Shown here piece by piece: positions 9,314 through 64,000 of a DNA stretch of 64,000 bases (its first letter is position 1; the number at the start of each line of letters is the position of its first letter). The stretch covers positions 389,805 to 453,804 of the forward strand of contig JBMOMC010000002.1 of assembly GCA_049325335.1 (NCBI GenBank), written 5' to 3'. The notes beneath the pieces are model-generated. The model was not told the DNA's origin, did not search any database, and worked only from the letters and a program-made list of their open reading frames with translations. The translations under genes and the position numbers were made by a program. Source of the stretch: Nitrospirota bacterium. GTDB lineage: Bacteria > Nitrospirota > Nitrospiria > 2-01-FULL-66-17.

Positions 9314-10380
9314 GGGACGTTCTTTTAAGATTTAAACTCTTTACGCAGTGAGCGACTACATGGTATAGGAGGGGCCATGCCGCGATGCGCTCGACTCGAC
9401 GCTCCGGGATTGCTGCACCACGTAATTGCGCGGGGAATCGAGCGACGTGTCATCTTTAGTGATGACGGCGACCGGGCGAATTTCCTCCAGCGGTTGGCCC
9501 GCCTTCTCCCGGAGACGGGGACGACGTGCCTGGCGTGGTGCTTGTTATCGAATCATCTGCATCTGCTCGTTCGCTCGGGGCCGGATGGGTTGGCGTGGTT
9601 CATGCGACGGGTGCTCACGGGCTACGCGGTGTACTTCAATCGTCGATATGACCGGGCCGGACACCTGTTCCAGAATCGCTACCATTCCACGGTGTGTGAG
9701 GCCGAATCCTACCTGCTTGAGCTGGTTCGATACATCCACCTCAATCCCGTCCGGGCTGGGCTGGTCCCTGACATCCAGGCGTTGCGGCAGTATCCCGGGT
9801 GCGGGCACTCCGCCGTGATGGGAGTAATCCCGCGTTCCTGGCACGCCACCGACGAAGTGCTGGCGCAATTCGGCGCCAACGCGAAGATGGCCCGTCAACG
9901 ATATGAGGCCTTCCTACAAGACGGTCTCGAACGGGGAGACCTCGCGGCGCGCATCGACGAGTCTGGTACCGAACCCGAAATGAAGGGGACGCGCGATGCC
10001 GATGGGCCGGACCGAAGAATGAGTCAGGTGCTGGGACGTCCGGAATTCGTGGAAAGCGTGAGCAGGCGATCAAACGCGGCGGTCGCCGGTCGGCGCAAGA
10101 GCGGCCGAGCGCTTTTGCGGGAGGTTTGTCGGGTGTTGAATCTCGCCCCGGATGAGCTGCGGTCGGGGCGCCAGGAGCGGAGCCTGGCAAACGGGCGGGC
10201 GATCGTGGCCTATCTGGGCCGTAGTCGTTATCGACTGACGGGCGTGGAACTATCGGACGTGTTGGGATTGAGTCAGCCGGCGGTGAGCCTGGCGGCCCAG
10301 CGCGGGCAGCGCCTGTTGGCGGGGAACGCGGCTTTCCGCGAAGCGCTGGATGAGATATAAAATCTTTAAAGAACGTCCCC
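9314..10380 (+). mobile_element. RAYT-like element: Y1/HUH transposase bounded by about 20-bp inverted repeats
   Basis: GGGACGTTCTTTTAAGATTT (9314-9333) and AAATCTTTAAAGAACGTCCC (10360-10379), one mismatch; short tandem duplications outside both ends. Confidence 0.8.
9377..10360 (+). CDS. REP-associated tyrosine transposase-like protein (Y1_Tnp) with C-terminal HTH
   Basis: MPR.ARLDAPG..HHVIARG, HUH motif NHLHLL, GHLFQNRY, catalytic RYIHLNPVRAG, C-terminal LGLSQPAVS HTH. Confidence 0.9.
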   Translation: MPRCARLDAPGLLHHVIARGIERRVIFSDDGDRANFLQRLARLLPETGTTCLAWCLLSNHLHLLVRSGPDGLAWFMRRVLTGYAVYFNRRYDRAGHLFQNRYHSTVCEAESYLLELVRYIHLNPVRAGLVPDIQALRQYPGCGHSAVMGVIPRSWHATDEVLAQFGANAKMARQRYEAFLQDGLERGDLAARIDESGTEPEMKGTRDADGPDRRMSQVLGRPEFVESVSRRSNAAVAGRRKSGRALLREVCRVLNLAPDELRSGRQERSLANGRAIVAYLGRSRYRLTGVELSDVLGLSQPAVSLAAQRGQRLLAGNAAFREALDEI

Positions 10381-10645
10381 TGGTTTGTCACTGGTTTGTC
10401 ACGCGGACATCGACCTTCAGCCCGGCGTGCGCGAGCATTGTGATGAGCGCGTCCGCATGCAGGTGGGGTCAAATCTTTAATCTTTAGGCAAGAGGTGAGT
10501 ACGAGCCGAGCGGGTTTTGTCTTGTACCCGTCACTCGCGCGCATGGGCGGTGTGGAAACGCTGCAACAATGAGTTCAGAGCAGGAAGGGCCTCTTTCCTC
10601 GCCGCGCGTTGATCTTCCTCGCTGAGCTCCCTATAATGCCCCGCC

Positions 10646-12962: not shown

Positions 12963-13616
12963 ATGGTGACCACGGGACCGGTCGGCTCCAGCGAAGGCAA
13001 AGGGTTGTTGTTCGTGGTCTCCGCGCCGTCGGGGGCGGGGAAAACCACGTTGTGCCGCGAAGTCGCGAACCTGGTCCCGGGGTTGCGGCACTCGGTGTCG
13101 TACACCACCCGTAAACCGCGTCCGGGTGAAACGGACGGTCGGGACTACTTCTTCCTGGACGAAGGCGGGTTTCGCAAAAAAGCGGAACGCGGGGAGTTCA
13201 TCGAGTGGGCGGAAGTGCACGGCAATCTGTACGGCACGCCGTGGGACCAAATCCTCATGCACGGCGAACAAGGCGTGGATTTGATCCTGGATATCGACGC
13301 GCAGGGCGCGATGCAGCTCAAAAAAAAGGAGGTCGAGGGGGTCTACATATATATCCTCCCTCCGTCGTTCGAGGTGCTCAAGGCCCGGTTGATGGAGCGT
13401 AAGTCGGACACGCCCGAGGAAATCGCGCGTCGGTTGCGCAAAGCGCGCGAGGAAATTTGGAGCTATCGCGAGTATTATTACCTCATCATCAACGACGACG
13501 TGAAACGCGCGATGCTCGAACTGCAGTCGATCATCATCTCGGAACGGATCAAGATGAAACGCATGAATTTTTCGTGGATCGAAGACTCATTCATCAAGAA
13601 TAAGGAGGTGTTCTGA
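12963..13616 (+). CDS. gmk: Guanylate kinase
   Basis: SAPSGAGKTT, SYTTRKPRPGE.DG.DY.F, EWAEVHGN.YGT. Confidence 0.96.
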   Translation: MVTTGPVGSSEGKGLLFVVSAPSGAGKTTLCREVANLVPGLRHSVSYTTRKPRPGETDGRDYFFLDEGGFRKKAERGEFIEWAEVHGNLYGTPWDQILMHGEQGVDLILDIDAQGAMQLKKKEVEGVYIYILPPSFEVLKARLMERKSDTPEEIARRLRKAREEIWSYREYYYLIINDDVKRAMLELQSIIISERIKMKRMNFSWIEDSFIKNKEVF

Positions 13617-13617
13617 C

Positions 13618-13983
13618 GTGGAAATCATCGAACTCCCGATTAAGCTGGACGAAACGGCCCTGGACTCCCGCTACCGCATGGTGGTGATCGGCGCGCAGCG
13701 CGCCCGGCAACTGATGGAAGGCGCGCGCGCCAGCGAGCATACCAAGTACGCCAAGGCCACGACCGTGGCGTTGGAAGAGTTTCTGGCCGGCGAGCTCAGG
13801 TTCGTCACGGGCAAGGAGGCGCGTTTGGCCCAACGCGACGCGCGCAAGAAACGCGAGGAACTGATGCGGCGTCGCGCGTTGTTGGAGCGCGAAGAGGAAA
13901 TCAGCGCCGAGATCAAGAAAGACCTGTCGGTGTACATCGACGATTCGGCGCGGCGAGCCTCCGAGACGCCGGGGCCGGCCTAA
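13618..13983 (+). CDS. rpoZ: RNA polymerase omega subunit
   Basis: DSRYRMVV..AQRARQL, K.TTVALEE; gmk-rpoZ-coaBC synteny. Confidence 0.9.
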   Translation: MEIIELPIKLDETALDSRYRMVVIGAQRARQLMEGARASEHTKYAKATTVALEEFLAGELRFVTGKEARLAQRDARKKREELMRRRALLEREEEISAEIKKDLSVYIDDSARRASETPGPA

Positions 13984-51924: not shown

Positions 51925-53403
51925 GTGATCGTGAGCGCTGCCGGTTTTCGGCTGGGCGCCGTCCTCGCCGCCGTCGCGGTGTTTCTCGCCTGCACCCGCC
52001 AGGGCGGCGGACCCTATTCATCCAGGCCCCACCTCACCGACGCGCGACAGATCGACGCCGGTCGGTCCGTGTTTCGGTTCGAAACGTTCGGGAACGAGCG
52101 GTTTTTCAGCGACATCCTGGGTCTGGATGACGGGCTGACCGCGCACGCCGTCACGCCGAACGACTTGCTCGCGGCGGGGGTGCAATTGGACGGCGATAAA
52201 CTGCCGTCCGACTTTCGCCGCGTGGACGTGGGCAACGGGTCGTACACCGATCCGCTGGCCACGTCGCGTCTGATCGAAGCCAACGCCGTGATCGGACTCG
52301 TGGCGCGGCAAGGCCGCATCGGGGTGACCTGCGCCTTGTGCCATGCGCGCGCCGACGACCGGATCGACGCCGGCGTGGGTCGCCGAATGGACGGGGTCCC
52401 GAACGCGCGTCTGGCCGTCGGGGAGGTGTTGGCGTGGGGCGTGCGGTCTCGTGCGTATGTGCCGTTCGTGAACGTGTCGGGGGTGGGATCAGGGCCGCGC
52501 GTGGCCTTGGAAACCGCGGAGGCCCCGGCGGTGATCGAGACCGCGATGGACGCGGCGCTGCGGGCCTGGCCGCGGGGCCAGGCCGACGTGCTGCCGGACG
52601 GGGCCGGGAACCCCACCGATATCCCCGCCCTGTTCGCGTTGCGCCCGCACGGGCCGTACTTGTGGGACGGGGCGTTCGCCACGGTCACCGACGCGTCCCA
52701 GTATTTCGCGACCGTCGTCTCCGATCCCACCACGTTGGCGACGCGCTGGGGGCAGGGCTTTCTGACGGACGGTCCGTTCTGGCCGGTGGGCGAAGCATTG
52801 AGCGCGTCGTATCAGTCCATCCTGCAATCCATCGACCCCGGCGCGTCATGGCCTCGCGCCGCCATCGGTCGCGCGAGCATCTTCAAGCTGTTTCACGACG
52901 CCATGGACGCGGGGTTTCGGGTCAACCGGGACGATATCGCGGCGCTGAGCGCGTACCTCGGACTGCTCTTGCCGGCCGACGCTCCCCCGGCCGACGCGCA
53001 CACCATCGACGCCGGCCGCCGCCTGTTCCGCACCGCGGCTTGTGACGCCTGTCACTTGGAAGCCGTGGGCTCGGGCGGGGCGGTGGTGCCGCTGGCGACG
53101 CTGGTGTCCGGGTACCCCGCGACGCCGGGCGGGGGCGAGGACCCGGCCAGGGGGTACGATGACCGGCTGGCGCTCACCGCCGGTGAAGACGCGATCGAGC
53201 GCCGCGGCTACAAAGTCCCGTCGTTGGTGGGGCTGTGGTTGTCGGCCCCGTACCTGCACGACGGCTCGGTCTCCACGCTCAACGCCCTATTCGACCCCGC
53301 GCGCGGCGCCGGCTCGCCGCACCCGTACTTCGTGGACTCACCTCCGGACCGAGACGCCTTGGCCGCGTACCTGAACGCGTGGGACGGGCGGACGTACCCG
53401 TAA
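51925..53403 (+). CDS. Diheme c-type cytochrome lipoprotein (peroxidase/MauG/RoxA-like superfamily)
   Basis: Lipobox-like FLAC, CALCH and CDACH, YKVPSL.G....APYLHDGS. Confidence 0.75.
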   Translation: MIVSAAGFRLGAVLAAVAVFLACTRQGGGPYSSRPHLTDARQIDAGRSVFRFETFGNERFFSDILGLDDGLTAHAVTPNDLLAAGVQLDGDKLPSDFRRVDVGNGSYTDPLATSRLIEANAVIGLVARQGRIGVTCALCHARADDRIDAGVGRRMDGVPNARLAVGEVLAWGVRSRAYVPFVNVSGVGSGPRVALETAEAPAVIETAMDAALRAWPRGQADVLPDGAGNPTDIPALFALRPHGPYLWDGAFATVTDASQYFATVVSDPTTLATRWGQGFLTDGPFWPVGEALSASYQSILQSIDPGASWPRAAIGRASIFKLFHDAMDAGFRVNRDDIAALSAYLGLLLPADAPPADAHTIDAGRRLFRTAACDACHLEAVGSGGAVVPLATLVSGYPATPGGGEDPARGYDDRLALTAGEDAIERRGYKVPSLVGLWLSAPYLHDGSVSTLNALFDPARGAGSPHPYFVDSPPDRDALAAYLNAWDGRTYP

Positions 53404-53584: not shown

Positions 53585-53603
53585 AAGTACTCTGACCCTG
53601 ATT
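53585..53603. repeat. Solitary right arm of a GGGTCAG-type hairpin preceding Rhs module 1
   Basis: AAGTACTCTGACCCTGATT shares CTGACCCTGATT with the hairpins at 58068 and 60621. Confidence 0.6.
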
Positions 53604-53609
53604 ATTCCT

Positions 53610-54533
53610 ACGTGACGGATATCCGATACGATGCCTTCAGCAAACGCACGCGCCTGGTCTTGGGCAACGGGACGCAGACCGACTACACCTATGACGCGGA
53701 CACGTTCCGCCTGCAACAACTCCGCACCCTCGGGCCGGGCGGCGTCCTGCAACACCTCAACTATACGTATGACGCGGTGGGCAACGTCCAGACGATTCGA
53801 GACGGCCTCAGCGCGGGGTACAGCGAGTCGTTCGATTACGACGACCTGCACCGACTCACCGGGGCGTTTGGGGCCTACGGCTCCCTCACCTACGCTTACG
53901 ATCCCATCGGCAACATGACGTGCAACAGCCAGATCAGCCCCTGCTCCGCCACGAGCCCCAACTACGCCTACCCGCCCAGCGGCGCCACCAGCGTGCGGCC
54001 GCACGCGGTGAACCAAGCGGGGCCGTACACGTACACCTACGACGCCAACGGCAACATGACCAGCGGGGCGGGGCGCAGCCTCACCTACGACGTGGACAAC
54101 CGGCCGACCAGCATGACGGTGGGGAGCAGCACGGTCACGTTCGCCTACGACTACAGCGGCGAGCGGGTGCGAAAGCAGGTGGCCGGCGGCGCGATGACCA
54201 CCTACGTCGGCGCGATCTATGAGTGCGCGGCAAGCTGCACCAAATACCTCTTTGCCGGCAGCACCCGCGTAGCGCAGAAGACGTCCGACGGCACCGTGGT
54301 GTACTTCCACGGCAATCACCTGGGCAGCACGCACATCGTGACCAACGCCGCCGGCGCCGCCGTGGAGGAGATCCACTACTACCCCTACGGCGGGACCTTC
54401 TCGGACACCAACGGCGAAGCCGGCGGCGTGAACCGCCGCTACACCGGCCAAGAGATGGACAGTGAAACGGGCTTGTATTACTACCACGCGCGGTACTATG
54501 ATCCGGTCCTGGGGCGATTTATCTCGGCGGATA
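53610..54533 (+). repeat. About 920-bp direct repeat of the Rhs core (second copy 60950-61873; partial copy about 58152-58575)
   Basis: Near-identical DNA at a constant offset of 7340 bp. Confidence 0.92.
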
Positions 54534-55345
54534 TTGCTGGAGTGACTCTTTCTGTTCCACAGAGCCTGAATCGGTACAGCTACGTGCTGAACAACCCATT
54601 GCGCTTTACCGACCCGACGGGGTTTCAGGTCTGTAACGGCGACGCTGCGGGGAATACGATCTGTATGGGGACCAACGGGCCGATTATTTTCCCTAAGGAT
54701 CCCATGGCGTCAGCGATCATGGGCACCTCCGATGGGACGTTCAACGTGGGGCGCGCCAATGCCAACCGAGATTTTCAGCAGGCCTTGGAGCGGGAGGCCA
54801 ATCCGACAACCCGAAACCAGTGGCTCCCCTCGTGGCAGCAGCCCGCCACGACAGGCGGGGGCGGTGGATGTGGGGGGCTGAGTGCGATTGCGTGTTTCGG
54901 GAGGGGCCCGAATAGCGCCGCCGCGCAACAGACCATTGATACCGGGATTGCACTCGTGGGCGATACTAGGTGGAGCAAGGGACAGGGGTCAGACATTTTT
55001 GGAGTTTTGTCAGAGGCGAATAGGACTGGGCGCTTGCTTGATGGGCCGGTGGAGCCTCCCCGCCGTGCTCAGTGGGACCCCGGCTCACGGACCATCACGT
55101 TCGATTTGTCACAGTTCGAGAGCAACCCCGGAGGGGTTTTCCATTACCTCCCAGGAGTGATGGTTCATGAAGGCACCCATTTATATCTCGGACACGGATT
55201 TGGAGACACGTTTTCTGAGGAGCGACCGGCCTTCAATAACCAGTTTTACTTTGAATCTGAATACTTGCAAAGATTCGGAGAAAAAGCCCGCTACAGAACG
55301 GATACTGAAATAAGGCGTCAATATAATATTCCCGGACTTCCATAG
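53612..55345 (+). CDS. 5'-truncated Rhs/YD-repeat module 1 with C-terminal HExxH zincin-like toxin tip
   Basis: YD repeats, YTGQE.D.ETGLYYYHARYYDP.LGRFIS.D, NRYSY..NNP....DPTG, then VHEGTH...EE..AF. Confidence 0.88.
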   Translation: MTDIRYDAFSKRTRLVLGNGTQTDYTYDADTFRLQQLRTLGPGGVLQHLNYTYDAVGNVQTIRDGLSAGYSESFDYDDLHRLTGAFGAYGSLTYAYDPIGNMTCNSQISPCSATSPNYAYPPSGATSVRPHAVNQAGPYTYTYDANGNMTSGAGRSLTYDVDNRPTSMTVGSSTVTFAYDYSGERVRKQVAGGAMTTYVGAIYECAASCTKYLFAGSTRVAQKTSDGTVVYFHGNHLGSTHIVTNAAGAAVEEIHYYPYGGTFSDTNGEAGGVNRRYTGQEMDSETGLYYYHARYYDPVLGRFISADIAGVTLSVPQSLNRYSYVLNNPLRFTDPTGFQVCNGDAAGNTICMGTNGPIIFPKDPMASAIMGTSDGTFNVGRANANRDFQQALEREANPTTRNQWLPSWQQPATTGGGGGCGGLSAIACFGRGPNSAAAQQTIDTGIALVGDTRWSKGQGSDIFGVLSEANRTGRLLDGPVEPPRRAQWDPGSRTITFDLSQFESNPGGVFHYLPGVMVHEGTHLYLGHGFGDTFSEERPAFNNQFYFESEYLQRFGEKARYRTDTEIRRQYNIPGLP

Positions 55346-55500
55346 GCAGTCGCAGGTCAAATCCAGGCGGGGGGAGAGGTAATCTGTCGTCGATCCTGCA
55401 GGTGAGGGACAGGGCAAATGCTAAGCGGCTGGGTTGAAGCATCACTCTATCGATCGTTTGTATTAGGCCATCAACAGGGCCAGGCTTGACTTGTTGACGC

Positions 55501-56427
55501 ATGGTTACCTCCGACACATTTAGAATGTGTTTCAGAAGGCACAGACGCTGGTACCTTTACCCGCTCGCAGTTATTACTTTGTTCTTTCTGCAAAGTGCCG
55601 TCTTCGCTAGTAGTGTCATTCCAGATGACTTCAAGGTCATCGCTGGGTATGGCCCTGGCTTCAGTGATTGGAAACCATGGGATGTAACGATCACGCGAGA
55701 CGGCAAGGTCTCTCAGAAGGCATACATTTTCGGGAACAACGGTGAAGAAACTGAAATCAGCAAAACATTCTCGCTGTCAGAGCGCGACGTGGCTGACCTG
55801 GTAGAGATAATTACCGGATCAGACTTCTTCAACATTAGTAAAAATCTGTCCTACCCAGTTACTGACAATGAGACTCTGTCTCTTGCTATCACGATGGGCC
55901 GAGTGTCACATCAAGTACGGGTCTATGCTCCCGTTCATCTTAAGGAACGGGCAGAGGTTAAGCGGTTCTTGCAGGTGTGGGGTGAAGTTATGAAGAAGGT
56001 GCCTTCACCGAACGACAAGGCGACGGTGCAGCGTCCGCCCACAGTGATAGCGAGCGCAGAAGACACTCCAGAGGAGATGATACGCAAGACAGGCTGTTCC
56101 GCATGCCACAAAGTTCCGACCGTCTTTGGAGGCGTGGGTGGCACGCTAGGGCCGGTGCTCAGTGCAAAAACGACTGCCCATGAGCGGATCGAAGCACCCG
56201 AATATATCGCAAGGATCAAAACCGGCAAAGCACGCGCAAGGACGCCGAAAGAGTACGTGGTTGAATCGATTCTCGATCCAAGCGCGTTCATTGTTCCGGG
56301 TTTCGAACTAAAATCCGCACCGGGAGCTTCAATGATGCCGAGCGACTATGGAGATAAGTTTACGTATCAAGCCCTTGACAAGCTTGCCGACTTCCTCCTG
56401 TCGCTTGATGAATCTGCAGCGAGATAA
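55501..56427 (+). CDS. Exported protein in immunity position with a C-terminal cytochrome c domain
   Basis: Signal peptide, lower GC, CSACH heme motif, GTLGP.L, EY..ESI.DP.A.IV.G, MP. Confidence 0.7.
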   Translation: MVTSDTFRMCFRRHRRWYLYPLAVITLFFLQSAVFASSVIPDDFKVIAGYGPGFSDWKPWDVTITRDGKVSQKAYIFGNNGEETEISKTFSLSERDVADLVEIITGSDFFNISKNLSYPVTDNETLSLAITMGRVSHQVRVYAPVHLKERAEVKRFLQVWGEVMKKVPSPNDKATVQRPPTVIASAEDTPEEMIRKTGCSACHKVPTVFGGVGGTLGPVLSAKTTAHERIEAPEYIARIKTGKARARTPKEYVVESILDPSAFIVPGFELKSAPGASMMPSDYGDKFTYQALDKLADFLLSLDESAAR

Positions 56428-56439
56428 CTTGCCCCGAGT

Positions 56440-56539
56440 GGGGACGTTCTTCACTTATTCACTTTCTTTACAGGCGATCGGTCATCGTGCTATAGACGCT
56501 GGCATGCCGCGCGGCCCGCGTTTAGACGCTCCGGGAGTA
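56440..56539 (+). mobile_element. Left-end stub of a RAYT-like element (arm, promoter, first 12 codons)
   Basis: GGGGACGTTCTT arm, TTTACA-18-TATAGA, ATG 56504 MPRGPRLDAPGV versus MPRCARLDAPGL at 9377. Confidence 0.8.
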
Positions 56540-56565
56540 TGGGCCCCGCGGAACTTAAAGGGGAC

Positions 56566-57407
<842 letters not shown>

Positions 57408-57452
57408 TTTCGAGTCCCCTTTCGATCCTTTACTGGACTTTCAATGCCCCAT

Positions 57453-57507
57453 CCGTTTGTCCTGAGCTTGTCGAAGGACTTCAAGAGGGTTTTTCAGCAC
57501 CCTGCTA
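57453..57507. repeat. REP-like motif CCGTTTGTCCTGAGCTTGTCGAAGGA plus MITE-like end TTTTTCAGCACCCTGCTA
   Basis: Resembles widespread intergenic palindromic repeats; single copy in the window. Confidence 0.45.
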
Positions 57508-57560
57508 AGCAGGTGAGTTTCTTGCCGGGGGCTCGGAAGAAGCGGTTCGGGGCGTGGGGA

Positions 57561-58064
57561 TTACAGAATCAAGCGCTCGCCAAGGTGTCGAAGTTCCCGC
57601 ACGAAGTCATCCGGCGTTGGTGACGTGATCCAGCGCACCGCCGCCCAGTCGGCCGGCGTGGCGGCGCACAACACGCGGGCCAGATCTGCCGGAAACAGAC
57701 CGGCCGCTTTGCTGTGCGCATCGGTCAGCGCGTGGTCGAGCGACAATCCCATGAGGCTGCAGAAGCCCCAAATGTCGGCCAAGTCCTTGGGCTCGCGCCG
57801 ATCAATCACGGCCGTGACCTTGTTGGCAAGGATGTTCTCCGGGCTGTCCATCCGGCCCAAGACCGGATGTGGGCGGATGTCGCCGATTCGCGACGGGACA
57901 TCATTGACCAGTTCGATTTTGAGGGTGGCGTCTGGTGTTTGGAGCGACAGGCGAGCGAACTGGGCGTCTCGTTGGATCACGTCGATGGTCCAGTCAGGGG
58001 CGTCCGCCAGTCCGTGGACAACCCGGTCGGTCCATCGGGCGAATCGCGGATCATCATTCACGAA
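57561..58064 (-). pseudogene. 5'-truncated AbiEii/AbiGii-like nucleotidyltransferase
   Basis: LKIELVND, DS.ENILANK.TA...R.EPKD..D; begins at FVNDD, lacks the N-terminal GGT/S.DLD motifs, cut at a hairpin. Confidence 0.7.
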
Positions 58065-58067
58065 GCC

Positions 58068-58151
58068 GCATCAGGGTCAGGTCTTGCAATCAAACATTGG
58101 CGACCACCGCTTTGAAGTGTGTTAATGCAAGACCTGACCCTGATTGGATTG
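58068..58151 (+). repeat. 84-bp GGGTCAG-armed hairpin, copy A
   Basis: 19-bp perfect IR ATCAGGGTCAGGTCTTGCA / TGCAAGACCTGACCCTGAT; identical to 60621-60704. Confidence 0.93.
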
Positions 58152-59268
58152 TACCTATGTGAGCGCGATCTACGAGTACACGGCGAGCGGCACCAAATAC
58201 CTCTTTGCCGGCAGCACCCGCGTGGCGCAGAAGACATCGGATGGAACGGTCTCGTACTTCCACGGCAATCACCTCGGCAGCACGCACATCGTGACCAACG
58301 CCGGCGGCGCCGCCGTGGAGGAGATCCACTACTATCCCTACGGCGGGACGTACACCGATTCGAACGGGGAGGCGGGGGGCGTCAGTTACCGCTACACCAG
58401 CCAGCAGCTCGACGTGGAGACGAGCTTGTATTATTACCACGCCCGGTACTATGATCCGGTCCTGGGGCGGTTTGTGTCGGCGGATAATATGGGGGTGACA
58501 TCAATGCTTCCCCAGTCGTTGAACCGTTATAGTTATGTGCTGAATAATCCGCTACGATTTGTCGATCCAACCGGTCACTATGTGCAGGCTGACGCTGCGG
58601 GGAACATTGTGGGTATCGACCAAGACGGACAATTAGTCGTCTGGACGAACCCCGGTCCCACCATGGATCAGGGGAAGGTTTACATAGCGAATCCCAGCGA
58701 TCCATATAGCGACGGGTGGCGATCCTTTAACGACGCGTTTTCCTCACCGGATTACAATGGATTATTTACGGCGAGCCCTGGGGAGATCGAGCAACGTCGT
58801 ATTGAGCAGGAGCGGTGGACCAGGGCCTACCAAGCTACTGGGCGAACGTCGCGAAAGGAAGTATCGACGGCAAGCTCGAGACGCCCAATGACCCTAGAGG
58901 TGACGAGCGAGGCGGAGTGGGAGTCCTCACTCCGGGGGGACAACCTATATGAAAATCAGTTCTCGGTCGGCAGTCCCAGCTGGTGTACTGGAGCGACCTG
59001 CACAGATACAAGCTGGCAGTCATACTCATTATATGGCTTTGAGATCGGAGTAGATGCACTAGATCTTCGTTACGGGCCGCCTCCAGAACAAATGTGGGGC
59101 GAACCGACTAAAGAGGTATTCGTTGATCTGCCTTATGTTGGTGTCGGGTTTGATAATGCGGGTGGTGCACACCTTCATTTGGGAAGAACGCTTGGGGTCG
59201 GGGCTGGTATTTCGACCAAACTCCCGGCGACTAAACCGTTTAACCCGGATGATCTGAATAAATGGTAA
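58144..59268 (+). CDS. 5'-truncated Rhs module 2 with unknown C-terminal toxin tip
   Basis: HLGSTH, YYPYG, ARYYDP.LGRF.SAD, NRYSY..NNP....DPTG then divergent tail. Confidence 0.85.
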   Translation: MDCTYVSAIYEYTASGTKYLFAGSTRVAQKTSDGTVSYFHGNHLGSTHIVTNAGGAAVEEIHYYPYGGTYTDSNGEAGGVSYRYTSQQLDVETSLYYYHARYYDPVLGRFVSADNMGVTSMLPQSLNRYSYVLNNPLRFVDPTGHYVQADAAGNIVGIDQDGQLVVWTNPGPTMDQGKVYIANPSDPYSDGWRSFNDAFSSPDYNGLFTASPGEIEQRRIEQERWTRAYQATGRTSRKEVSTASSRRPMTLEVTSEAEWESSLRGDNLYENQFSVGSPSWCTGATCTDTSWQSYSLYGFEIGVDALDLRYGPPPEQMWGEPTKEVFVDLPYVGVGFDNAGGAHLHLGRTLGVGAGISTKLPATKPFNPDDLNKW

Positions 59269-59375
59269 CCAGCCGACTCCTACTAACTGGCGCGGACGAA
59301 GTAACTATCATCCGGTCTCGATGCTCATGCATCAGAAATTTGATATCTCCTGTTGGCTCGCAAAATGGTAAATAA

Positions 59376-59729
59376 ATGCGACGAGGGACAAAGCTACTCC
59401 TTGGTACTTTAACGATTTGGCCACTGATTGCTTATTTGCTCGCCGTTTTGCTACAGCAAAACGTATCACTGGTAGACAACAAGCACTATTTCACGGAACA
59501 TCGTATTCAGGGGCTCATGTACACCGTTAGCGGCGCGAGTTTCGTCTTAGTATCAATAGCCATGGATATTTTCTATGTGCGACACGTCAGGAAAAATTCT
59601 AATAGCCTAGGGTTCTCGTCTAGAAGAAAGCTCGGATGGATTGCCGCAATTATAGCGCTTGGTCCAATTACTACGCCGATTTATTTCTATAATTACTTTT
59701 GGAGAGATCCTCCTAAAGGGAGCCATTGA
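59376..59729 (+). CDS. Membrane protein, candidate immunity for Rhs module 2
   Basis: Low GC, three hydrophobic helices, K..W...I.......PIYF motif; directly downstream of the toxin tip. Confidence 0.65.
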   Translation: MRRGTKLLLGTLTIWPLIAYLLAVLLQQNVSLVDNKHYFTEHRIQGLMYTVSGASFVLVSIAMDIFYVRHVRKNSNSLGFSSRRKLGWIAAIIALGPITTPIYFYNYFWRDPPKGSH

Positions 59730-59742
59730 GTTTTGAGTGGAG

Positions 59743-59779
59743 TTTTCATGAGCCGCCGGCTCACCCCGCGGCATGAAAA
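59743..59779. repeat. Small palindrome TTTTCATG...CATGAAAA
   Basis: Inverted repeat with an inner GAGCC/GGCTC stem. Confidence 0.5.
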
Positions 59780-59790
59780 GGGAACCCACA

Positions 59791-59837
59791 GGGTCAGACA
59801 TTGATCTCTTGACATTGGGAGTCGGGCGGCGTAGGCT
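59791..59837 (+). promoter_or_regulatory. GGGTCAG half-arm followed by a promoter-like sequence (probable RAYT-type left end)
   Basis: GGGTCAGACATTGATCTC, TTGACA-17nt-TAGGCT. Confidence 0.45.
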
Positions 59838-59850
59838 GCGAATCACTGGT

Positions 59851-59922
59851 TGGGGTCAGGTCTTGCATTAACACACTTCAAATCGTCGGTTGGCTAATGT
59901 TTGATTGCAAGACCTGACCCCA
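59851..59922 (-). repeat. GGGTCAG-armed hairpin, copy B (loop inverted relative to A)
   Basis: TGGGGTCAGGTCTTGCA...TGCAAGACCTGACCCCA; loop resembles the reverse complement of A; flanked by CACTGGTT direct repeats. Confidence 0.9.
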
Positions 59923-59984
59923 CTGGTTTTCTCCGCCGGGTCGAAGACGACCAGCGCGCGTAAAAGACTTTGGGAAAAGACTTT

Positions 59985-60064
59985 GGGGTCAGGCATGAGT
60001 ATTGACTTATTGTCTGTTTCCTCCGTCGACGGCGTTTCAATAGTCAATACTCATGCCTGACCCC
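59985..60064. repeat. Variant hairpin with a 23-bp perfect IR
   Basis: GGGGTCAGGCATGAGTATTGACT ... AGTCAATACTCATGCCTGACCCC; preceded by AAAAGACTTTGGG x2. Confidence 0.9.
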
Positions 60065-60069
60065 GTCTG

Positions 60070-60175
60070 GTCTCGATTGGTTGTACTGACGGATATAGCG
60101 CATGAGCTTTCTCTTTAGATCCGCGACCGAAGTAAACACCCCGCGCGCGATGACGTCGCGTTCGATCTTGCCGAA
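60070..60175 (-). mobile_element. IS630 family transposase C-terminal fragment
   Basis: Minus-strand translation FGKIERDVIARGVFTSVADLKRKLMRYIRQYNQ, between two hairpins. Confidence 0.7.
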
Positions 60176-60188
60176 CCCGGCGATCTCC

Positions 60189-60253
60189 GGGGTCAGGTCT
60201 TGCATTAACACACTTCAAATCGTCGGTTGACTAATAGTTTGATTGCAAGACCT
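60189..60253 (-). repeat. GGGTCAG-armed hairpin, copy C (inverted loop, right arm shortened)
   Basis: GGGGTCAGGTCTTGCATTAACACACTTCAAA...TGCAAGACCT followed by CGTATCTTGACTC. Confidence 0.88.
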
Positions 60254-60278
60254 CGTATCTTGACTCAGAGGAGGTAGA

Positions 60279-60616
<338 letters not shown>

Positions 60617-60620
60617 TCAG

Positions 60621-60704
60621 GCATCAGGGTCAGGTCTTGCAATCAAACATTGGCGACCACCGCTTTGAAGTGTGTTAATGCAAGACCTGACCCTGATTGG
60701 ATTG
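60621..60704 (+). repeat. 84-bp GGGTCAG-armed hairpin, copy D
   Basis: Identical to 58068-58151; GCATCAG duplicated on the left. Confidence 0.93.
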
Positions 60705-62694
60705 CGAAGGGGGGACGACGGTCGTGCGCAGCGCGAGCTTCGACTACGACGTGCGCGGCAACATCACCCGCACCGTCCGCGTCCTGGACGGGGCCACCTA
60801 CACCACCGACCAGACCTACGACTCGCTCAATCGGATCGAGACCGTGACCTATCCCGACACGCCCACGCGCGAAGTCGTGACCCAGACCTACAACAGTGCC
60901 GGTAGCCTGGCGACCGTCACCGGGGTCGATGGGGGCGTGACCACGAATGACGTGACGGATATCCAATACGATGCCTTCAGCAAACGCACGCGCCTGGTCT
61001 TGGGCAACGGGACGCAGACCGACTACACCTATGACGCGGACACGTTCCGCCTGCAACAACTCCGCACCCTCGGGCCGGGCGGCGTCCTGCAACACCTCAA
61101 CTATACGTATGACGCGGTGGGCAACGTCCAGACGATTCGAGACGGCCTCAGCGCGGGGTACAACGAGTCGTTCGATTACGACGACCTGCACCGACTCACC
61201 GGGGCGTTTGGGGCCTACGGCTCCCTGACCTATGCCTACAATCAAATCGGCAACATGACGTGCAACAGCCAACTCGGCCCCTGCTCCGCCACCAGCGCCA
61301 ACTACGCCTACCCGCCGAGCGGCGTGACCAGCGTGCGCCCGCACGCGGTGAACCAAGCGGGGCCGTACACGTACACCTACGACGCCAACGGCAACATGAC
61401 CAGCGGGGCGGGGCGCAGCCTCACCTACGACGTGAACAACCGGCCCACCAGCATGACGGTGGGCGGCAGCACCGTCGCGTTCGCCTACGACTACAGCGGC
61501 GAGCGGGTGAGAAAACAGGTGGTCGGCGGCGCCATGACCACCTACGTGGGCGCCATCTACGAGTGCGCGGCGAGCTGTACCAAATACCTCTTTGCCGGCA
61601 GCACGCGGGTGGCTCAGAAGACATCGGATGGTACCGTGGCGTACTTCCACGGTAATCACCTCGGGAGCACGCACGTCGTGACCAATAGTAGCGGAACAGC
61701 GGTGGAGGAAATCCACTACTACCCCTATGGAGGAACCTACTCCGACTCCAACGGCGAAGCGGGGGGCGTGAATCGTCGCTACACCGGGCAGGAGATCGAT
61801 ATCGAAACGGGCTTGTATTACTACCACGCCCGGTACTATGATCCGGTCCTGGGGCGGTTTATCTCGGCGGATACGGGCGGGATTCGGATTGACGATCCTC
61901 AGACACTCAACCGATACAGCTACGTGTTAAACAACCCACTACGGTTTATCGATCCGAATGGACAAGATGCGATTCAGGTCGATGAAGGGGGGAGTGTGGT
62001 CGCTCCGGTTCCCTGTTCGACGGGTGTCGGATTCTGCGGCGTGTCGGTGACGAGTCCGAGTTACGGCATCCAGGTTACGGGAACCTATGAACCGGGCCGT
62101 GGTCAGCGTTTTGAGGCAAATCCGTGGGTATCGCCATGGACACTTCCGGGACACCGTCCCCTCGCTTCGGTGAACCTCGGCATCATGGAGGCGAAGATTG
62201 CGGCCTATCAGGGAATTGAATGTAGTGGCTGCAGTGCCTTTGAGCGCTTTGGACGAGCTATCTCCGGGAACGTAACTTCTTTTAAGGAAATGGATAAAAA
62301 GCAGGCGAGGGTGGGTCCGATCGGTATCGAGACAACAACTTCAGTGGGTCTTCAGGTTGGGAGACGGGACAGTCTGATTTCCACAGAAGTGAGTGAACAG
62401 AGCGCAAAGATTTCCATGTTTGGGGTTGGCGTCAGTTGGCCTCTGGCATTTTCTGGATCAATCCCAGGGACAAATCAGTCGTTTTCCCTTGGACTGAATC
62501 AAGGCACAACATTTAGCATGAGTTCGACCTTCTCCGGTGGGGATGGTGCCCAAGGTGGTGTCATAAAGCAAACAGTCACATATAGTATTAAGCCGTTCAT
62601 CAACGATGTTCAAGAGGCCGTGAGTGCGGTAAAACCTCCAATGTTTGTCCCGCTTCGGGGTCCATCGCGAGCCGATTGGGACGCTCTTCCATAA
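60697..62694 (+). CDS. 5'-truncated Rhs module 3 with unknown C-terminal toxin tip
   Basis: YD repeats, Rhs core motifs, DPNG cleavage motif, divergent lower-GC tail. Confidence 0.88.
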   Translation: MDCEGGTTVVRSASFDYDVRGNITRTVRVLDGATYTTDQTYDSLNRIETVTYPDTPTREVVTQTYNSAGSLATVTGVDGGVTTNDVTDIQYDAFSKRTRLVLGNGTQTDYTYDADTFRLQQLRTLGPGGVLQHLNYTYDAVGNVQTIRDGLSAGYNESFDYDDLHRLTGAFGAYGSLTYAYNQIGNMTCNSQLGPCSATSANYAYPPSGVTSVRPHAVNQAGPYTYTYDANGNMTSGAGRSLTYDVNNRPTSMTVGGSTVAFAYDYSGERVRKQVVGGAMTTYVGAIYECAASCTKYLFAGSTRVAQKTSDGTVAYFHGNHLGSTHVVTNSSGTAVEEIHYYPYGGTYSDSNGEAGGVNRRYTGQEIDIETGLYYYHARYYDPVLGRFISADTGGIRIDDPQTLNRYSYVLNNPLRFIDPNGQDAIQVDEGGSVVAPVPCSTGVGFCGVSVTSPSYGIQVTGTYEPGRGQRFEANPWVSPWTLPGHRPLASVNLGIMEAKIAAYQGIECSGCSAFERFGRAISGNVTSFKEMDKKQARVGPIGIETTTSVGLQVGRRDSLISTEVSEQSAKISMFGVGVSWPLAFSGSIPGTNQSFSLGLNQGTTFSMSSTFSGGDGAQGGVIKQTVTYSIKPFINDVQEAVSAVKPPMFVPLRGPSRADWDALP

Positions 62695-63487
62695 ATTGGT
62701 TTCGAAACGGTTGAGAAATTATTTCCAGCGCGGCACTGCGGAAGACGTGCGAGCTAGGGAGAGGGTTGCGACTGGTCTCATCGTCCTTGCGATCGTTGTG
62801 GGATTTGTCGGGCTCTTGCTGGTATTAACAAAGCTTAACTATCCATTTAATTTTGGTATGCCAGTCATTGATACTCGTGGGATGGAGGAAATTATCCATG
62901 ACCTCGGGGTAAACACAATTGATCAATATAGGTTAGTCCGAGTTGATAAGGGTGAGCGTGGAGAGAACCGAATAGCCGTATTCGCCAACCGGGAGAATGG
63001 GCAGAAGATCGTGGCCACTCTTATCCGGGAACACCTCGGTGATCGCTTGGAGCGAATCGCTCTCTTGGATCGGACATCAGTTGAAGAAACATTTTATCAG
63101 TCAGATTTTGAAATGCTTCAGGTTCCTTCGTTTCGATTTACCTACTTCCTCCCTTTAATGCATCGCAACGATGATTTGACAGGCATTGGGGACGAGGCCG
63201 TGGTGAGAGGCATTTCAATTGCTTCGCAAGAGCGCCTTGAGACGGACCACGCGGAAATATTTTATGTTCAAGGCGAATTTACCAGGATCGGTCTCTTCAA
63301 GGAGGCGCGGGGAGAGTGGGTCTACCCGACGCCGGCCTTCGATTTCGTGAGCCGGCACGAGGGGGCACTGGCGTTTCTCAAATCCAGAGCATCGGGGCGA
63401 GTTGTCATTTATGTGGGGGTCAATAGTATTGGTCAATTTATCGAACAAGAATTTCGGGAATTTGTGACCAAAGCCACCCCAAAGTAG
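62645..63487 (+). CDS. Membrane-anchored protein, candidate immunity for Rhs module 3 (start uncertain, probably further downstream)
   Basis: Low GC, single TM helix, adjoins the Rhs stop. Confidence 0.65.
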   Translation: MSRFGVHREPIGTLFHKLVSKRLRNYFQRGTAEDVRARERVATGLIVLAIVVGFVGLLLVLTKLNYPFNFGMPVIDTRGMEEIIHDLGVNTIDQYRLVRVDKGERGENRIAVFANRENGQKIVATLIREHLGDRLERIALLDRTSVEETFYQSDFEMLQVPSFRFTYFLPLMHRNDDLTGIGDEAVVRGISIASQERLETDHAEIFYVQGEFTRIGLFKEARGEWVYPTPAFDFVSRHEGALAFLKSRASGRVVIYVGVNSIGQFIEQEFREFVTKATPK

Positions 63488-63535
63488 TTACAGTCAATGA
63501 TCAGCAGCGGCGATCTCCGCAGGCGATCTCCGGGG

Positions 63536-63730
63536 TCAGATACCGTCTTGGAAATCAAGGTGCGGGGTGGCCAGGCGGGCATCGAAGACCTGCCCGGACT
63601 TGATCACGCCGTAGATTAGATGTGCCAACTTCCGCATCACGGCGCCGACCACGGCCTTCGGGGCCAGCCCCGTGGCTCGCAGGCGATCGCCGAACACGCG
63701 CAGGACGGGATTATGGCGCCGGGCCACCAC
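63536..63730 (-). mobile_element. IS110 family transposase remnant 3 (5'-truncated)
   Basis: NPVL..F..RL...G..PK.VVGAVMRKL.H.IYGV.KSG..FD, LDFQDGI end. Confidence 0.85.
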
Positions 63731-63748
63731 GCATCAGGGTCACACCAC

Positions 63749-63816
63749 GCATCAGGGTCAGGTCTTGCAATCAAACATTGGCGACCGCCGCTTTGAAGTG
63801 TGTTAATGCAAGACCT
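63749..63816 (+). repeat. GGGTCAG-armed hairpin, copy E (A-type loop, right arm shortened)
   Basis: One substitution versus copy A; followed by CGTATCTTGACTC as in copy C; 18-bp tandem duplication on the left. Confidence 0.9.
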
Positions 63817-63873
63817 CGTATCTTGACTCTGGCGATCAAACAATCTGTAGTAACGACGTGGAAGTGGCTGAGC

Positions 63874-64000
63874 GAGTCAATCCCATTTTTAGTTGAGATT
63901 CGATCGCGGCTCCTGTGTGATCCCTATGCTGCGTGCACGGTGGTCTCGGTGGCCGAGGCCGCTCGCCGGAGCAAGGCGGCCCGCAACTGGGGCAAGGCCC
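63874..64000 (-). mobile_element. Probable IS256-like element 3' end (continues beyond the window)
   Basis: Minus-strand ...ALPQLRAALLRRAASATETTVHAA* followed by TIR-like TCAACTAAAAATGGGATTGACTC. Confidence 0.5.

What the first reader, a model, noticed from the sequence alone, without database searches (positions are those of the whole stretch)
53585..63830. Hairpin-delimited Rhs toxin cassette array: candidate HUH/RAYT-driven capture and shuffling system
Seen in sequence: three Rhs toxin plus candidate-immunity modules, three IS110 remnants, an AbiEii-like fragment, an IS630 fragment and a RAYT stub. All three Rhs modules begin within about 10 bp after the same arm sequence CTGACCCTGATT (53592, 58134, 60687). 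All minus-strand fragments are cut at their 5' side right at a hairpin edge (57320, 58064, 60613, 63730). The hairpins form two arm families, GGGGTCAG and GGGGACGTTC; the second matches the ends of the intact Y1 transposase at 9314-10380. Established: orphan Rhs-CT/immunity arrays are usually explained by homologous recombination in the core, and RAYTs nick ssDNA at REP hairpins. Inference: here hairpins act as portable recombination sites that let a HUH tyrosine transposase splice arbitrary DNA pieces into an integron-like toxin library.
Basis: partly seen in the sequence, partly recalled or inferred. Interest (0 to 1): 0.92.

Follow-up and report, generated by a model that had tools for sequence, protein, structure and literature searches.

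The report
Rhs toxin remnants riddled with transposon hairpins
Three leftover toxin-gene tails lie in a patch of genome crowded with small hairpin copies of a little-studied transposon and broken insertion sequences; the breaks sit at the hairpin edges, which points to hairpin-linked DNA breakage rather than a purpose-built toxin-collecting device.

Summary
Window 53.6-64.0 kb carries three 5'-truncated Rhs core ends with unrelated C-terminal domains. It also holds three IS110 remnants, an AbiEii fragment, a Y1-transposase stub and about eight palindromic elements. Eight gene fragments stop at a hairpin edge. One label was wrong: the "IS630" scrap is an rve (IS3-type) integrase piece.

The hairpins are not classical REP/RAYT. 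They are head-to-head end copies of TIRtrons, a class named in 2013 and never tested. TIRtrons are elements of HUH Y1 "TIRYT" transposases with an HTH or DnaA_C tail and GGGGWSAS ends. Four TIRYT genes with matching ends lie in this genome.

The same hairpin ends occur in at least 246 places across many phyla. There they sit in ordinary intergenic DNA: 0 of 38 testable neighbours were truncated and 0 of 246 loci had Rhs. An integron-like toxin library is therefore not supported.

What is unusual here and in two same-genus genomes is a local nest with precise joints at the end motif GGGGTCA, small tandem duplications at the edges, and a 750-nt fragment copied from elsewhere.

Best reading (0.58): an orphan Rhs array overrun by mobile DNA and rearranged at the hairpins. 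The scan has met TIRYT elements before in other genomes.

The parts
9314..10381 (+). Intact B-family TIRtron: TIRYT gene 9377-10360 (Y1_Tnp + Bac_DnaA_C) between inverted GGGACGTTCTT arms. Small tandem duplications lie outside both arms.
53592..53603 (.). Relic of the right end of an A-fwd hairpin (CTGACCCTGATT), with no hairpin attached, 6 nt before Rhs1 homology begins.
53612..55345 (+). Rhs1: 5'-truncated Rhs core end plus a 241-aa C-terminal domain with an HEGTH motif at 55166-55180. The Atlas lead to SprT-like or metallopeptidase proteins is weak.
55501..56427 (+). ORF of 308 aa with DUF6438 below cutoff and a weak cytochrome c match. Its immunity role is unproven.
56434..56565 (+). Single B-type arm (GGGGACGTTC at 56440), a TIRYT stub of about 15 codons (56504-56548), then AAAGGGGAC abutting the IS110_1 right end.
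56566..57311 (-). IS110_1 remnant, lacking the first 74 residues and the left end.
57312..57419 (.). B-family palindrome (TIR dimer) with 12-nt edge duplications.
57313..58065 (-). Segment duplicated from the C44 locus (1 mismatch plus a 12-nt indel). It comprises the B palindrome, the 3' UTR and the 3' 166 codons of AbiEii (57561-58061).
58068..58151 (.). A-fwd hairpin, 84 nt, 100% identical to 60621-60704.
58144..59268 (+). Rhs2: shortest Rhs core end (homology from about 58153) plus a 229-aa C-terminal domain of no known family.
59376..59729 (+). ORF of 117 aa, candidate immunity protein, no family.
59852..59921 (.). A hairpin in reverse orientation, flanked by a 7-nt direct repeat ACTGGTT. 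This is atypical for the family.
59985..60064 (.). A' palindrome with 23-nt perfect arms (GGGGTCAGGCATGAG...). A 13-nt edge duplication lies to its left.
60065..60188 (-). rve (IS3-type) integrase scrap, bounded by hairpins on both sides.
60189..60253 (.). A hairpin (reverse) that has lost the outer 7 nt of one arm. The junction reads GCAAGACC|TCGTATCTTGACTC.
60279..60617 (-). IS110_2 remnant: right end plus about the last 99 codons. It is preceded by 25 nt of unknown origin (60254-60278).
60621..60704 (.). A-fwd hairpin, identical to 58068-58151.
60697..62694 (+). Rhs3: longest Rhs core end plus a 245-aa C-terminal domain of no known family.
62645..63487 (+). ORF of 280 aa, candidate immunity protein, no family.
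63522..63539 (.). Relic GGCGATCTCCGGGGTCAG, identical to 60179-60196 (rve flank plus the start of an A arm). It abuts the IS110_3 right end.
63536..63730 (-). IS110_3 remnant: C-terminal 64 codons and its natural right end.
63725..63816 (.). 18-nt tandem duplication (CACCACGCATCAGGGTCA, two copies) followed by an A-fwd hairpin lacking the outer 7 nt of its right arm.
63870..64000 (.). End of a multi-copy IS with inverted-repeat ends, at which the contig stops. The same end lies at 7 contig ends.

Best explanation
This is an orphan Rhs C-terminal-toxin/immunity array: three 5'-truncated Rhs tails at the end of a chromosomal contig of an uncultured Nitrospirota. It has become a nest for mobile DNA.

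The hairpins are gene-less, head-to-head end copies of TIRtrons. TIRtrons are elements of HUH Y1 'TIRYT' transposases with an HTH or DnaA_C tail and GGGGWSAS ends.

The junctions fall at hairpin edges for three reasons:
(a) Hairpin copies spread locally.
(b) IS110 elements of one clade insert at the GGGGWC end of these arms.
(c) DNA is broken and rejoined at or next to the arms. This happens through recombination between near-identical hairpin copies and through cleavage at the outer GGGGTCA motif, most simply by the TIRYT. It deletes or duplicates what lies between and leaves 5'-truncated, silent fragments.

The Rhs tails also exchange sequence with each other by ordinary homologous recombination in the conserved core.

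Shown: the parts, the junction positions, the duplication from contig C44, and the family-wide behaviour of the hairpin. Inferred: the order of events, TIRYT cleavage at GGGGTCA, and the absence of any dedicated function.
For: TIRYT identity:
- Y1_Tnp + Bac_DnaA_C or HTH_23 in 3 intact genes, plus one gene with an in-frame stop. All four are flanked by inverted GGGG(T/A)C... arms.
- The class is described in PMC3733652 and PMC6006769 (passages).

The hairpin family behaves as an ordinary intergenic repeat elsewhere:
- Of 251 flanks, 120 had a frame open from the edge, 38 of those had Pfam hits, and 0 of 38 lacked their N-terminus.
- 0 of 246 loci had Rhs homologues.
- 1 of 241 had flanking direct repeats of 5 nt or more.

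Local nest:
- 7 of about 16 hairpin dimers of the genome lie in these 10 kb.

Break point:
- Joints lie at or within 1 nt of GGGGTCA|GGTC at 60253, 63816, 63539, 53592, 63742 and C1:467990.
- In other genomes 44 of 482 edges carry tandem duplications, against 6 of 284 control segments.
- 12 of 37 tracts end exactly after GGGGTCA.

Recent copying:
- 57313-58065 equals C44 at 98.3% (1 mismatch plus a 12-nt indel), while the C44 gene runs on intact.
- Read depth is 703 on this segment against 326-364 around it.

IS110 targeting:
- IS110_1 and IS110_3 share the end TTGAYNTCCAAGACRGTWKCT, followed by GTCCCC or GACCCC.

Core recombination:
- Rhs1 and Rhs3 are 96-100% identical over the first 250 nt, falling to 68-86%.

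No expression signals:
- 5 promoter-like sites were found against 4.4 expected, none at a junction.
Against: - All 8 truncated fragments in the array, and one more at a B hairpin on contig C45, have lost their 5' part. Random deletion should give a mixture. Selection against expressed fragments may explain it, but a polar mechanism also could.
- The A-fwd sub-variant (AGGGTCAGG...CCTGACCCT) is found only here. In 3 of 3 readable cases its right end abuts an Rhs tail cut at a different position. Insertion plus deletion would need about six insertions of a low-copy element within 10 kb.
- TIR clusters lie next to Rhs loci in two other species of the genus as well. This hints at more than chance co-location.
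- TIRYT cleavage has never been shown. Relic 63539 is equally well explained by IS110 insertion.
Confidence: 0.58

Rival explanations
1. TIRYT-driven one-ended (rolling-circle-like) copying. The enzyme nicks at GGGGTCA. A strand that starts at the nick and runs through the hairpin into neighbouring DNA for a variable distance is copied and joined elsewhere, so flanking DNA (Rhs tails, AbiEii, IS pieces) is carried along. This resembles IS91/ISCR or Helitron capture. No selected 'library' function is implied.
For: - Nick-anchored partial copies that include flanking DNA occur at C1:467965-468530: an arm lacking GGGGTCA, the hairpin and about 70 nt of flank, in 2-3 copies.
- G003 has five co-oriented arms, each with a different length of the downstream TIRYT gene, next to a full Rhs.
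- The 750-nt B-hairpin + AbiEii piece ends at one side on the hairpin edge and at the other side inside a gene.
- Both reciprocal products are present: flank + GGGGTCA joined to foreign DNA, and foreign DNA joined to GGTCTTGCA....
- All 9 fragments abutting hairpins lost their 5' part.
Against: - Y1 (single-tyrosine) IS200/IS605-type enzymes are known for excision and insertion of single-stranded circles, not rolling-circle copying (recalled).
- 0 of 38 testable neighbours in other genomes were truncated, so such events are rare at best.
- Most array junctions lie 6-9 nt outside the arm, not at the proposed nick.
- IS110 insertion explains at least one 'reciprocal product'.
Confidence: 0.2
2. 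IS110 bridge-type recombinases are the main agent. This IS110 clade targets the GGGGWC end of TIRtron arms, and recombination between IS110 ends and the many arm copies produced the deletions, inversions and duplications.
For: - IS110_1 and IS110_3 ends abut GTCCCC or GACCCC.
- 3 of 5 compared right ends are followed by GWCYCC.
- IS110-family elements insert into REP-like palindromes and are linked to large rearrangements: PMC1525189, PMC12288879, PMC11208160 and 10.64898/2026.03.19.712850 (search listing and start of abstracts only).
Against: - The 5' cuts of the IS110 genes lie inside coding sequence, not at natural left ends.
- The Rhs and AbiEii junctions involve no IS110 end.
- No intact IS110 of this clade is in the assembly.
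- Edge duplications occur in 246 loci of which only 1 has even a weak IS110 hit.
Confidence: 0.1
3. One reading: a dedicated, integron-like system in which hairpins serve as portable recombination sites, so that a HUH transposase collects and shuffles toxin cassettes for the cell's benefit.
For: - Three Rhs tails with intact reading frames each start right after the same arm end.
- The association with Rhs loci recurs in the genus.
Against: - There is no promoter or fixed entry site.
- The units differ in content and hold dead transposase pieces.
- No full-length Rhs is available to receive a tail.
- 0 of 246 hairpin loci elsewhere have Rhs.
- TIRYT genes are not linked to the array. The nearest lies 43 kb away and belongs to the B family.
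Confidence: 0.04
4. Assembly artefact: the mosaic is a chimera built at repeats in a metagenome bin.
For: - The genome is a 45-contig MAG. The window ends in a repeat.
- The 750-nt repeat 57313-58065 exceeds read length, so the link between IS110_1 + B hairpin and AbiEii' + A hairpin could be swapped with the C44 version.
Against: - Contigs (k=31) of the probable source run bridge 54241-57342, 59863-60218, 60200-60650 and 61831-63777 without a difference. Their depth equals that of the chromosome.
- The A repeats are only 84 nt.
- A run from a second study holds identical 151-nt pieces, including 60485-60635.
Confidence: 0.05

Closest known systems
TIRtron / TIRYT (Di Nocera, De Gregorio & Rocco 2013, PMC3733652). 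This equals TnpA_REP subclass 2.1 (Quentin et al. 2018, PMC6006769).
   Same: - HUH Y1 transposase with a Bac_DnaA_C or HTH_23 tail.
- Gene flanked by inverted arms fitting GGGGWSAS (GGGGTCAG fits fully; GGGGACGT and GGGGTCAA fit in part).
- Gene-less arm copies occur as singles, dimers and clusters in moderate number.
   Different: - Here the dimers sit at junctions of truncated genes in one 10-kb nest.
- They show precise joints at the outer heptamer and edge tandem duplications.
- Neither feature appears in the passages I read.
REPIN/RAYT systems (Bertels & Rainey 2011, PMC3116915; search listing and abstract only).
   Same: - Hairpin made of two inverted end copies.
- A cognate Y1 gene flanked by the same sequence.
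- No target duplication.
   Different: - No GTAG tag.
- Low copy number (about 16 dimers, not hundreds).
- Several TIRYT genes per genome.
- The protein scores below the NCBIfam RAYT cutoff and carries an extra HTH domain.
Orphan Rhs-CT/immunity arrays of Enterobacteria
   Same: - 5'-truncated core ends with a diverse C-terminal domain and a small downstream ORF.
- An identity gradient showing recombination in the core.
- IS debris is common at Rhs loci.
   Different: - No main Rhs gene is seen upstream.
- The truncation points abut one hairpin sub-variant.
- The host is a Nitrospirota.
REP-targeting IS110-family elements such as ISPpu9, ISPpu10 and IS621 (PMC12288879, PMC11208160, PMC1525189; search listing and abstracts only).
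   Same: IS110 ends lie at a fixed position within a repeated palindrome.
   Different: - The target here is a TIRtron arm end (GGGGWC).
- All three copies are dead remnants, so the bridge RNA cannot be read.
Integron (IntI, attI, attC cassettes).
   Same: Imperfect palindromes lie between promoter-less gene units.
   Different: - No IntI, attI or Pc.
- The units are not single ORFs.
- The palindromes belong to a transposon family that is intergenic elsewhere.

Membership tests
TIRtron / TIRYT | Y1 HUH transposase domain with HUH motif and catalytic tyrosine | tested here: met
   PF01797 hits in 4 genes. The motifs NHLHLL / NHYHLV and RYIHLNP / RYVVLNP were read in the translations.
TIRtron / TIRYT | C-terminal HTH (Bac_DnaA_C, HTH_23 or HTH_28) | tested here: met
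   Bac_DnaA_C in the window gene and the C43 gene; HTH_23 in the C40 gene. The C11 gene is interrupted by a stop.
TIRtron / TIRYT | Gene flanked by terminal inverted repeats sharing GGGGWSAS | tested here: met
   Both inverted arms were read for three genes: window GGGACGTTCTT.../...AAGAACGTCCCC, C43 GGGGACGTTCC on both sides, and C40 GGGGTCAGGTCTTGCA on both sides. For C11 only the upstream GGGGTCAAATC arm was seen.
TIRtron / TIRYT | Enzyme cuts or moves its arms | not testable with these tools
   Only footprints are available: joints at GGGGTCA and 100% identical copies.
Classical REP/RAYT | GTAG-tagged short REP; protein reaches the RAYT model cutoff | tested here: not met
   The arms start with GGGG, not GTAG. 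NF047646 scores 63.7 bits against a cutoff of 80.
Orphan Rhs-CT/immunity array | Core-end fragment (Rhs_assc_core, PxxxxDPxGL region) followed by a variable C-terminal domain and a small downstream ORF | tested here: met
   TIGR03696 in 3 of 3 fragments. The C-terminal domains are unrelated to each other. Downstream ORFs are present. Immunity function was not tested.
Orphan Rhs-CT/immunity array | Lies downstream of a full-length main Rhs gene | tested here: not met
   A cytochrome c gene and housekeeping genes lie upstream. No other Rhs was found in the assembly by tblastn. The assembly is 99% complete by marker genes but fragmented.
Integron-like cassette array | Dedicated recombinase gene, entry site and promoter next to the array; one ORF per cassette | tested here: not met
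   No recombinase gene was found next to the array. No promoter-like site lies at any junction. The units hold several ORFs and debris.
IS110 family | DEDD domain plus Transposase_20 domain | tested here: met
   IS110_1 has PF01548 (partial) and PF02371 and NF033542 positions 75-343. IS110_2 and IS110_3 were assigned by homology only.

The most novel reading that the evidence does not exclude
TIRYT enzymes nick their arms right after GGGGTCA. They can then copy or join the strand that starts there, together with whatever DNA lies beyond the hairpin, to new places. That would be a bacterial Y1-type counterpart of Helitron/ISCR gene capture. In this genus it would have assembled mosaic arrays that include ready-made Rhs toxin/immunity modules.
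Probability: 0.17. Interest if true: 0.78.

Novelty: new variant of a known kind. Interest (0 to 1): 0.45.

Why it matters
TIRYTs are a large branch of the HUH transposases that no one has tested. In the library searched, the term occurs in 3 records, the two papers cited here plus a duplicate copy of one of them.

This locus, together with the 246 hairpins from other phyla, yields a concrete and testable prediction. The conserved outer heptamer GGGGTCA marks the cleavage or joining point. Activity there leaves short tandem duplications and, rarely, chimeric junctions.

The locus also suggests that one IS110 clade uses TIRtron ends as its landing site.

For Rhs biology the message is sobering. 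A tidy-looking 'cassette array' can be produced by mobile-element traffic and core recombination, without any dedicated capture system.

Tried and rejected
- DDE-type MITE. One copy (59852-59921) has 7-nt direct repeats. Only 1 of 241 copies elsewhere has flanking repeats of 5 nt or more, and the arms flank Y1 genes only. Rejected.
- Exact 26-mer of the A hairpin loop in genome contigs and metagenome contigs: 0 matches in each. No other strain could therefore be compared for cassette order.
- Synteny with G001. Its Rhs/IS110/AbiE island looked similar in gene order, but the island is a mosaic of different elements and its flanks map to other G000 contigs. It gave no usable outgroup.
- The multi-copy repeat at the window's end as an IS110. 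Rejected: it has imperfect inverted ends and no IS110 similarity.
- Reads. Runs X3 and X4 held only short Rhs-repeat look-alikes. The 'joints' 54055>60737 and 53104>57647 had sides of 22-24 nt and come from YD-repeat similarity, so they are no evidence for circles or alternative junctions. Contigs cannot show rare variants.
- Naming the C-terminal domains. Pfam at E up to 1 gave nothing. Atlas gave only a weak SprT-like lead for CT1 (0.90) and nothing for CT3.
- Protein alignment. The rows for IS110_2, L004 and L006 were taken in wrong frames, so I used only IS110_1, IS110_3 and L005. One search failed on a coordinate slip.
- The open-frame test for truncation is noisy in GC-rich DNA. Only the 38 of 120 frames with Pfam hits were counted; 82 were left unjudged. 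Genes that run towards the hairpins were not tested.

Full report
WHERE THE WINDOW LIES

The window is G000:C2:389805-453804, and its last base is the end of contig C2. The assembly has 3.25 Mb in 45 contigs and is 99% complete by marker genes.

Upstream of 53.4 kb lie ordinary chromosomal genes: isocitrate dehydrogenase, ScpA/B, AddAB, FBPase and others. Directly before the array lies a RoxA-like cytochrome c gene, 51925-53403. G+C falls from about 0.63-0.70 to 0.48-0.62 inside the array.

THE OBSERVATION

There are three Rhs fragments: 53612-55345, 58144-59268 and 60697-62694. Each holds the Rhs-associated core domain and matches only the last 110 or so positions of the 1261-position RHS core model. 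Each continues into 229-245 residues without any Pfam family. The first carries HEGTH at 55166-55180 and gives a weak Atlas lead to SprT-like or metallopeptidase proteins, score 0.90. Each is followed by an ORF of 308, 117 or 280 aa with no convincing family.

On the minus strand lie four kinds of fragment:
- IS110_1, covering positions 75-343 of 343 of the IS110 model.
- IS110_2 and IS110_3, C-terminal pieces only.
- A 166-codon AbiEii piece.

A B-type arm at 56440 is followed by the first 15 or so codons of a Y1 gene.

CTGACCCTGATT occurs three times in the whole assembly, each time just before an Rhs fragment. Four complete palindromes fold as single strands with z -7.0 to -10.4.

WHAT THE HAIRPINS ARE

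The gene 9377-10360 is Y1_Tnp + Bac_DnaA_C. It lies between inverted GGGACGTTCTT arms.

tblastn finds three more such genes:
- C43: B arms on both sides, Bac_DnaA_C.
- C40: GGGGTCAGGTCTTGCA arms on both sides, HTH_23.
- C11: a GGGGTCAAATC arm upstream (only that side was seen) and an in-frame stop after 146 codons.

This architecture is the TIRYT/TIRtron class of Di Nocera et al. 2013. In that class Y1 genes are flanked by inverted repeats sharing GGGGWSAS, and the repeats occur as singles, dimers or clusters (passages). Quentin et al. 2018 equate it with TnpA_REP subclass 2.1, which has Bac_DnaA_C, HTH_23 or HTH_28 tails (passages).

The protein scores below NCBIfam's RAYT cutoff, 63.7 against 80 bits. 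The term TIRYT occurs in only 3 records of the library, and the 2 works listed are these two papers. I saw no biochemical test of the class.

The hairpins in the array are head-to-head pairs of such arms. I assign the A hairpins to the C40-type enzyme only on the shared terminal 15-16 nt. The inner parts differ.

HOW THE SAME HAIRPIN BEHAVES ELSEWHERE

A pattern of the two 14-nt arm ends with a 25-55-nt loop found at least 125 stretches in genome contigs and at least 121 in metagenome contigs. That gives 246 distinct copies from many phyla.

Neighbouring genes are intact:
- 251 flanks had at least 900 nt.
- 120 of these had a frame of at least 90 codons open from the hairpin edge and pointing away.
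- 38 of the 120 had Pfam hits at E up to 1e-5.
- In all 38 the first domain began at or near profile position 1. Examples are GAPDH, TIM, aspartokinase, MnmE and Pol I 5'-3' exonuclease.
- So 0 of 38 were N-terminally truncated. The other 82 could not be judged.

Other results:
- 0 of the 246 loci (909 kb) had an Rhs homologue, 5 had a TIRYT and 1 had a weak IS110 hit.
- Flanking direct repeats of 5 nt or more occurred in 1 of 241 copies. This fits a HUH enzyme and argues against a DDE-type MITE.

The family at large is therefore an ordinary intergenic repeat.

WHAT IS SPECIAL HERE

1. Crowding. About 7 of about 16 hairpin dimers of the genome lie in these 10 kb.

2. A recent copy. Window 57313-58065 (B hairpin, 3' UTR and 3' part of AbiEii) equals C44:221515-220775, with one mismatch and a 12-nt tandem unit present twice here and once there.
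   - On C44 the AbiEii gene continues intact.
   - The shared segment starts at the B hairpin's outer edge and stops, inside the gene, at the A hairpin.
   - Contig depth is 703 on this segment against 326-364 around it. One contig of the run goes on past 58065 with the intact-gene sequence.

3. Precise joints at the outer heptamer.
   - Two A copies (60189-60253, 63743-63816) lack exactly the outer 7 nt of one arm and continue with TCGTATCTTGACTC.
   - C1:467990 and C1:468217 show the same cut.
   - The converse products, flank + GGG(G)TCA(G) followed by unrelated DNA, stand at 63522-63539 (an 18-mer identical to 60179-60196) and, on the other strand, at 53592-53603.

4. Edge tandem duplications of 'flank + GGGGTCA'.
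   - Here they occur at 63725-63760, 57400-57423, 59963-59988, C11:52745, C40:64240 and C1:468380.
   - In the other genomes 44 of 482 edges carry them, against 6 of 284 control segments 350 nt away.
   - Of 37 tracts near an edge, 12 end exactly after GGGGTCA and 7 end at the arm's outer boundary.

5. Polarity. All eight truncated fragments in the array have lost their 5' part next to a hairpin. A ninth, an rve piece at a B hairpin on C45, shows the same.

IS110 REMNANTS

Alignment of the remnants with full-length relatives from other genomes shows a conserved right end, TTGAYNTCCAAGACRGTWKCT. In IS110_1 it is followed by GTCCCC and in IS110_3 by GACCCC. These are the outer ends of a B-type and an A-type arm. 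IS110_2 is followed by other sequence.

This clade therefore probably inserts at GGGGWC of TIRtron arms. That matches the known habit of IS110-family elements of landing in REP-like palindromes (search listing and abstracts only). It explains the arm next to the 3' side of two remnants, and one of the 'relics'. It does not explain the 5' cuts.

CLASSICAL Rhs DYNAMICS

Rhs1 and Rhs3 are 96-100% identical over the first 250 nt of Rhs1, then 68-92%, then unrelated. Rhs2 is about 80% identical to both. This gradient is what recombination within the conserved core produces.

No full-length Rhs is in the assembly.

RELATIVES

Of 41 genomes searched with the array DNA (G000 included), 20 gave some match, mostly to IS110 or Rhs core.

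- G003, same genus. A 2071-aa Rhs (SpvB, FG-GAP, TcdB_midN, RHS) and a TPR ORF are followed by five co-oriented A-like arms. Each arm carries a different length of the downstream TIRYT gene, and the series runs to the contig end.
- G001. One Rhs has a TIRYT element two genes upstream. Arm-like sequences with 17-18-nt edge repeats lie downstream of another Rhs tail.
- GGGGTCASRTCT occurs 8, 9 and 12 times in G000, G001 and G003. The copies are clustered, with one cluster beside an Rhs locus in each genome.

These genomes are close kin and the counts are small. I take this as a hint that Rhs loci and TIRtron nests share hot spots in this genus, not as a test.

IS THE ASSEMBLY REAL?

Contigs (k=31) of the probable source run cover the array at chromosomal depth. 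They bridge 54241-57342, 59863-60218, 60200-60650 and 61831-63777 without a difference.

A run from another study holds identical 151-nt pieces.

These are contigs, not reads, and the first run is not independent of the assembly. The link across the 750-nt repeat could be swapped with the C44 version. In that case unit 1 would continue into the intact AbiE pair, and units 2-3 would sit behind a copy of the multi-copy IS.

VERDICT

The parts are known kinds: an orphan Rhs array, TIRtron hairpins and IS110. The claim that breakpoints sit at hairpin edges is also right.

The leap to an integron-like toxin library is not supported, for four reasons:
- No entry site or promoter was found.
- The units have mixed contents.
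- No recipient gene is present.
- The hairpin family is intergenic and Rhs-free elsewhere.

I read the locus as a mobile-DNA nest in which hairpin copies, IS110 insertions at arm ends, breakage and rejoining at GGGGTCA, and core recombination together produced the mosaic (0.58). A one-ended, nick-anchored copying mechanism that carries flanking DNA along remains possible (about 0.2). It is the interesting alternative.

Noticed in passing
window 63725-63760, 57400-57423, 59963-59988, 9290-9314, 10382-10403; loci L017-L262: Short tandem duplications (7-24 nt) of 'local flank + GGGGTCA' sit at the outer edges of these hairpins in many phyla. They occur at 44 of 482 edges against 6 of 284 controls, and 12 of 37 tracts end exactly after GGGGTCA. 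One is polymorphic between the two near-identical copies in this genome.
   Followed up: partly
window 56545-56600 and 63522-63560: IS110_1 and IS110_3 share a conserved right end. Both abut G(T/A)CCCC, the outer end of a TIRtron arm, so this IS110 clade seems to target TIRtron ends.
   Followed up: partly
G000 contig C1:467965-468530: Two or three tandem partial copies, each made of an A arm lacking its outer 7 nt, the hairpin and about 70 nt of right flank. They lie across a scaffold gap.
   Followed up: partly
L013 (G003:C4) 12131-13720: Five co-oriented A-like arms carry nested, differently truncated TIRYT 5' parts. They lie directly downstream of a full-length 2071-aa Rhs with SpvB/TcdB_midN domains and a TPR ORF.
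   Followed up: partly
window 63870-64000 and 13 contig ends of G000: A multi-copy IS with imperfect inverted ends (GAGTCAATCCCATTTTTAGTTGAG... / ...GGACGATCTC) breaks the assembly at 7 + 6 contig ends. Its interior is not in the bin.
   Followed up: partly
G000 contig C45:145859-146186: An 80-aa C-terminal rve fragment is cut at its 5' side exactly at a B-family hairpin. This is the same geometry as in the array.
   Followed up: yes
window 10465-10488 and G000 contig C11:2960-2985: A third arm family (GGGGTCAAATCTTTAATCTTTAGG) stands upstream of the C11 TIRYT gene, which has an in-frame stop after 146 codons. One copy lies 100 nt downstream of the window's TIRtron.
   Followed up: no
window 59852-59921: This A hairpin is flanked by a 7-nt direct repeat (ACTGGTT). 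Only 1 of 241 copies elsewhere has flanking repeats of 5 nt or more.
   Followed up: partly
window 55501-56427: The ORF after Rhs1 combines a weak DUF6438 match with a CxxCH cytochrome c-like C-terminal part. It has paralogues at C2:126601 and C2:53045 (49% identity), so it may not be an immunity gene.
   Followed up: no
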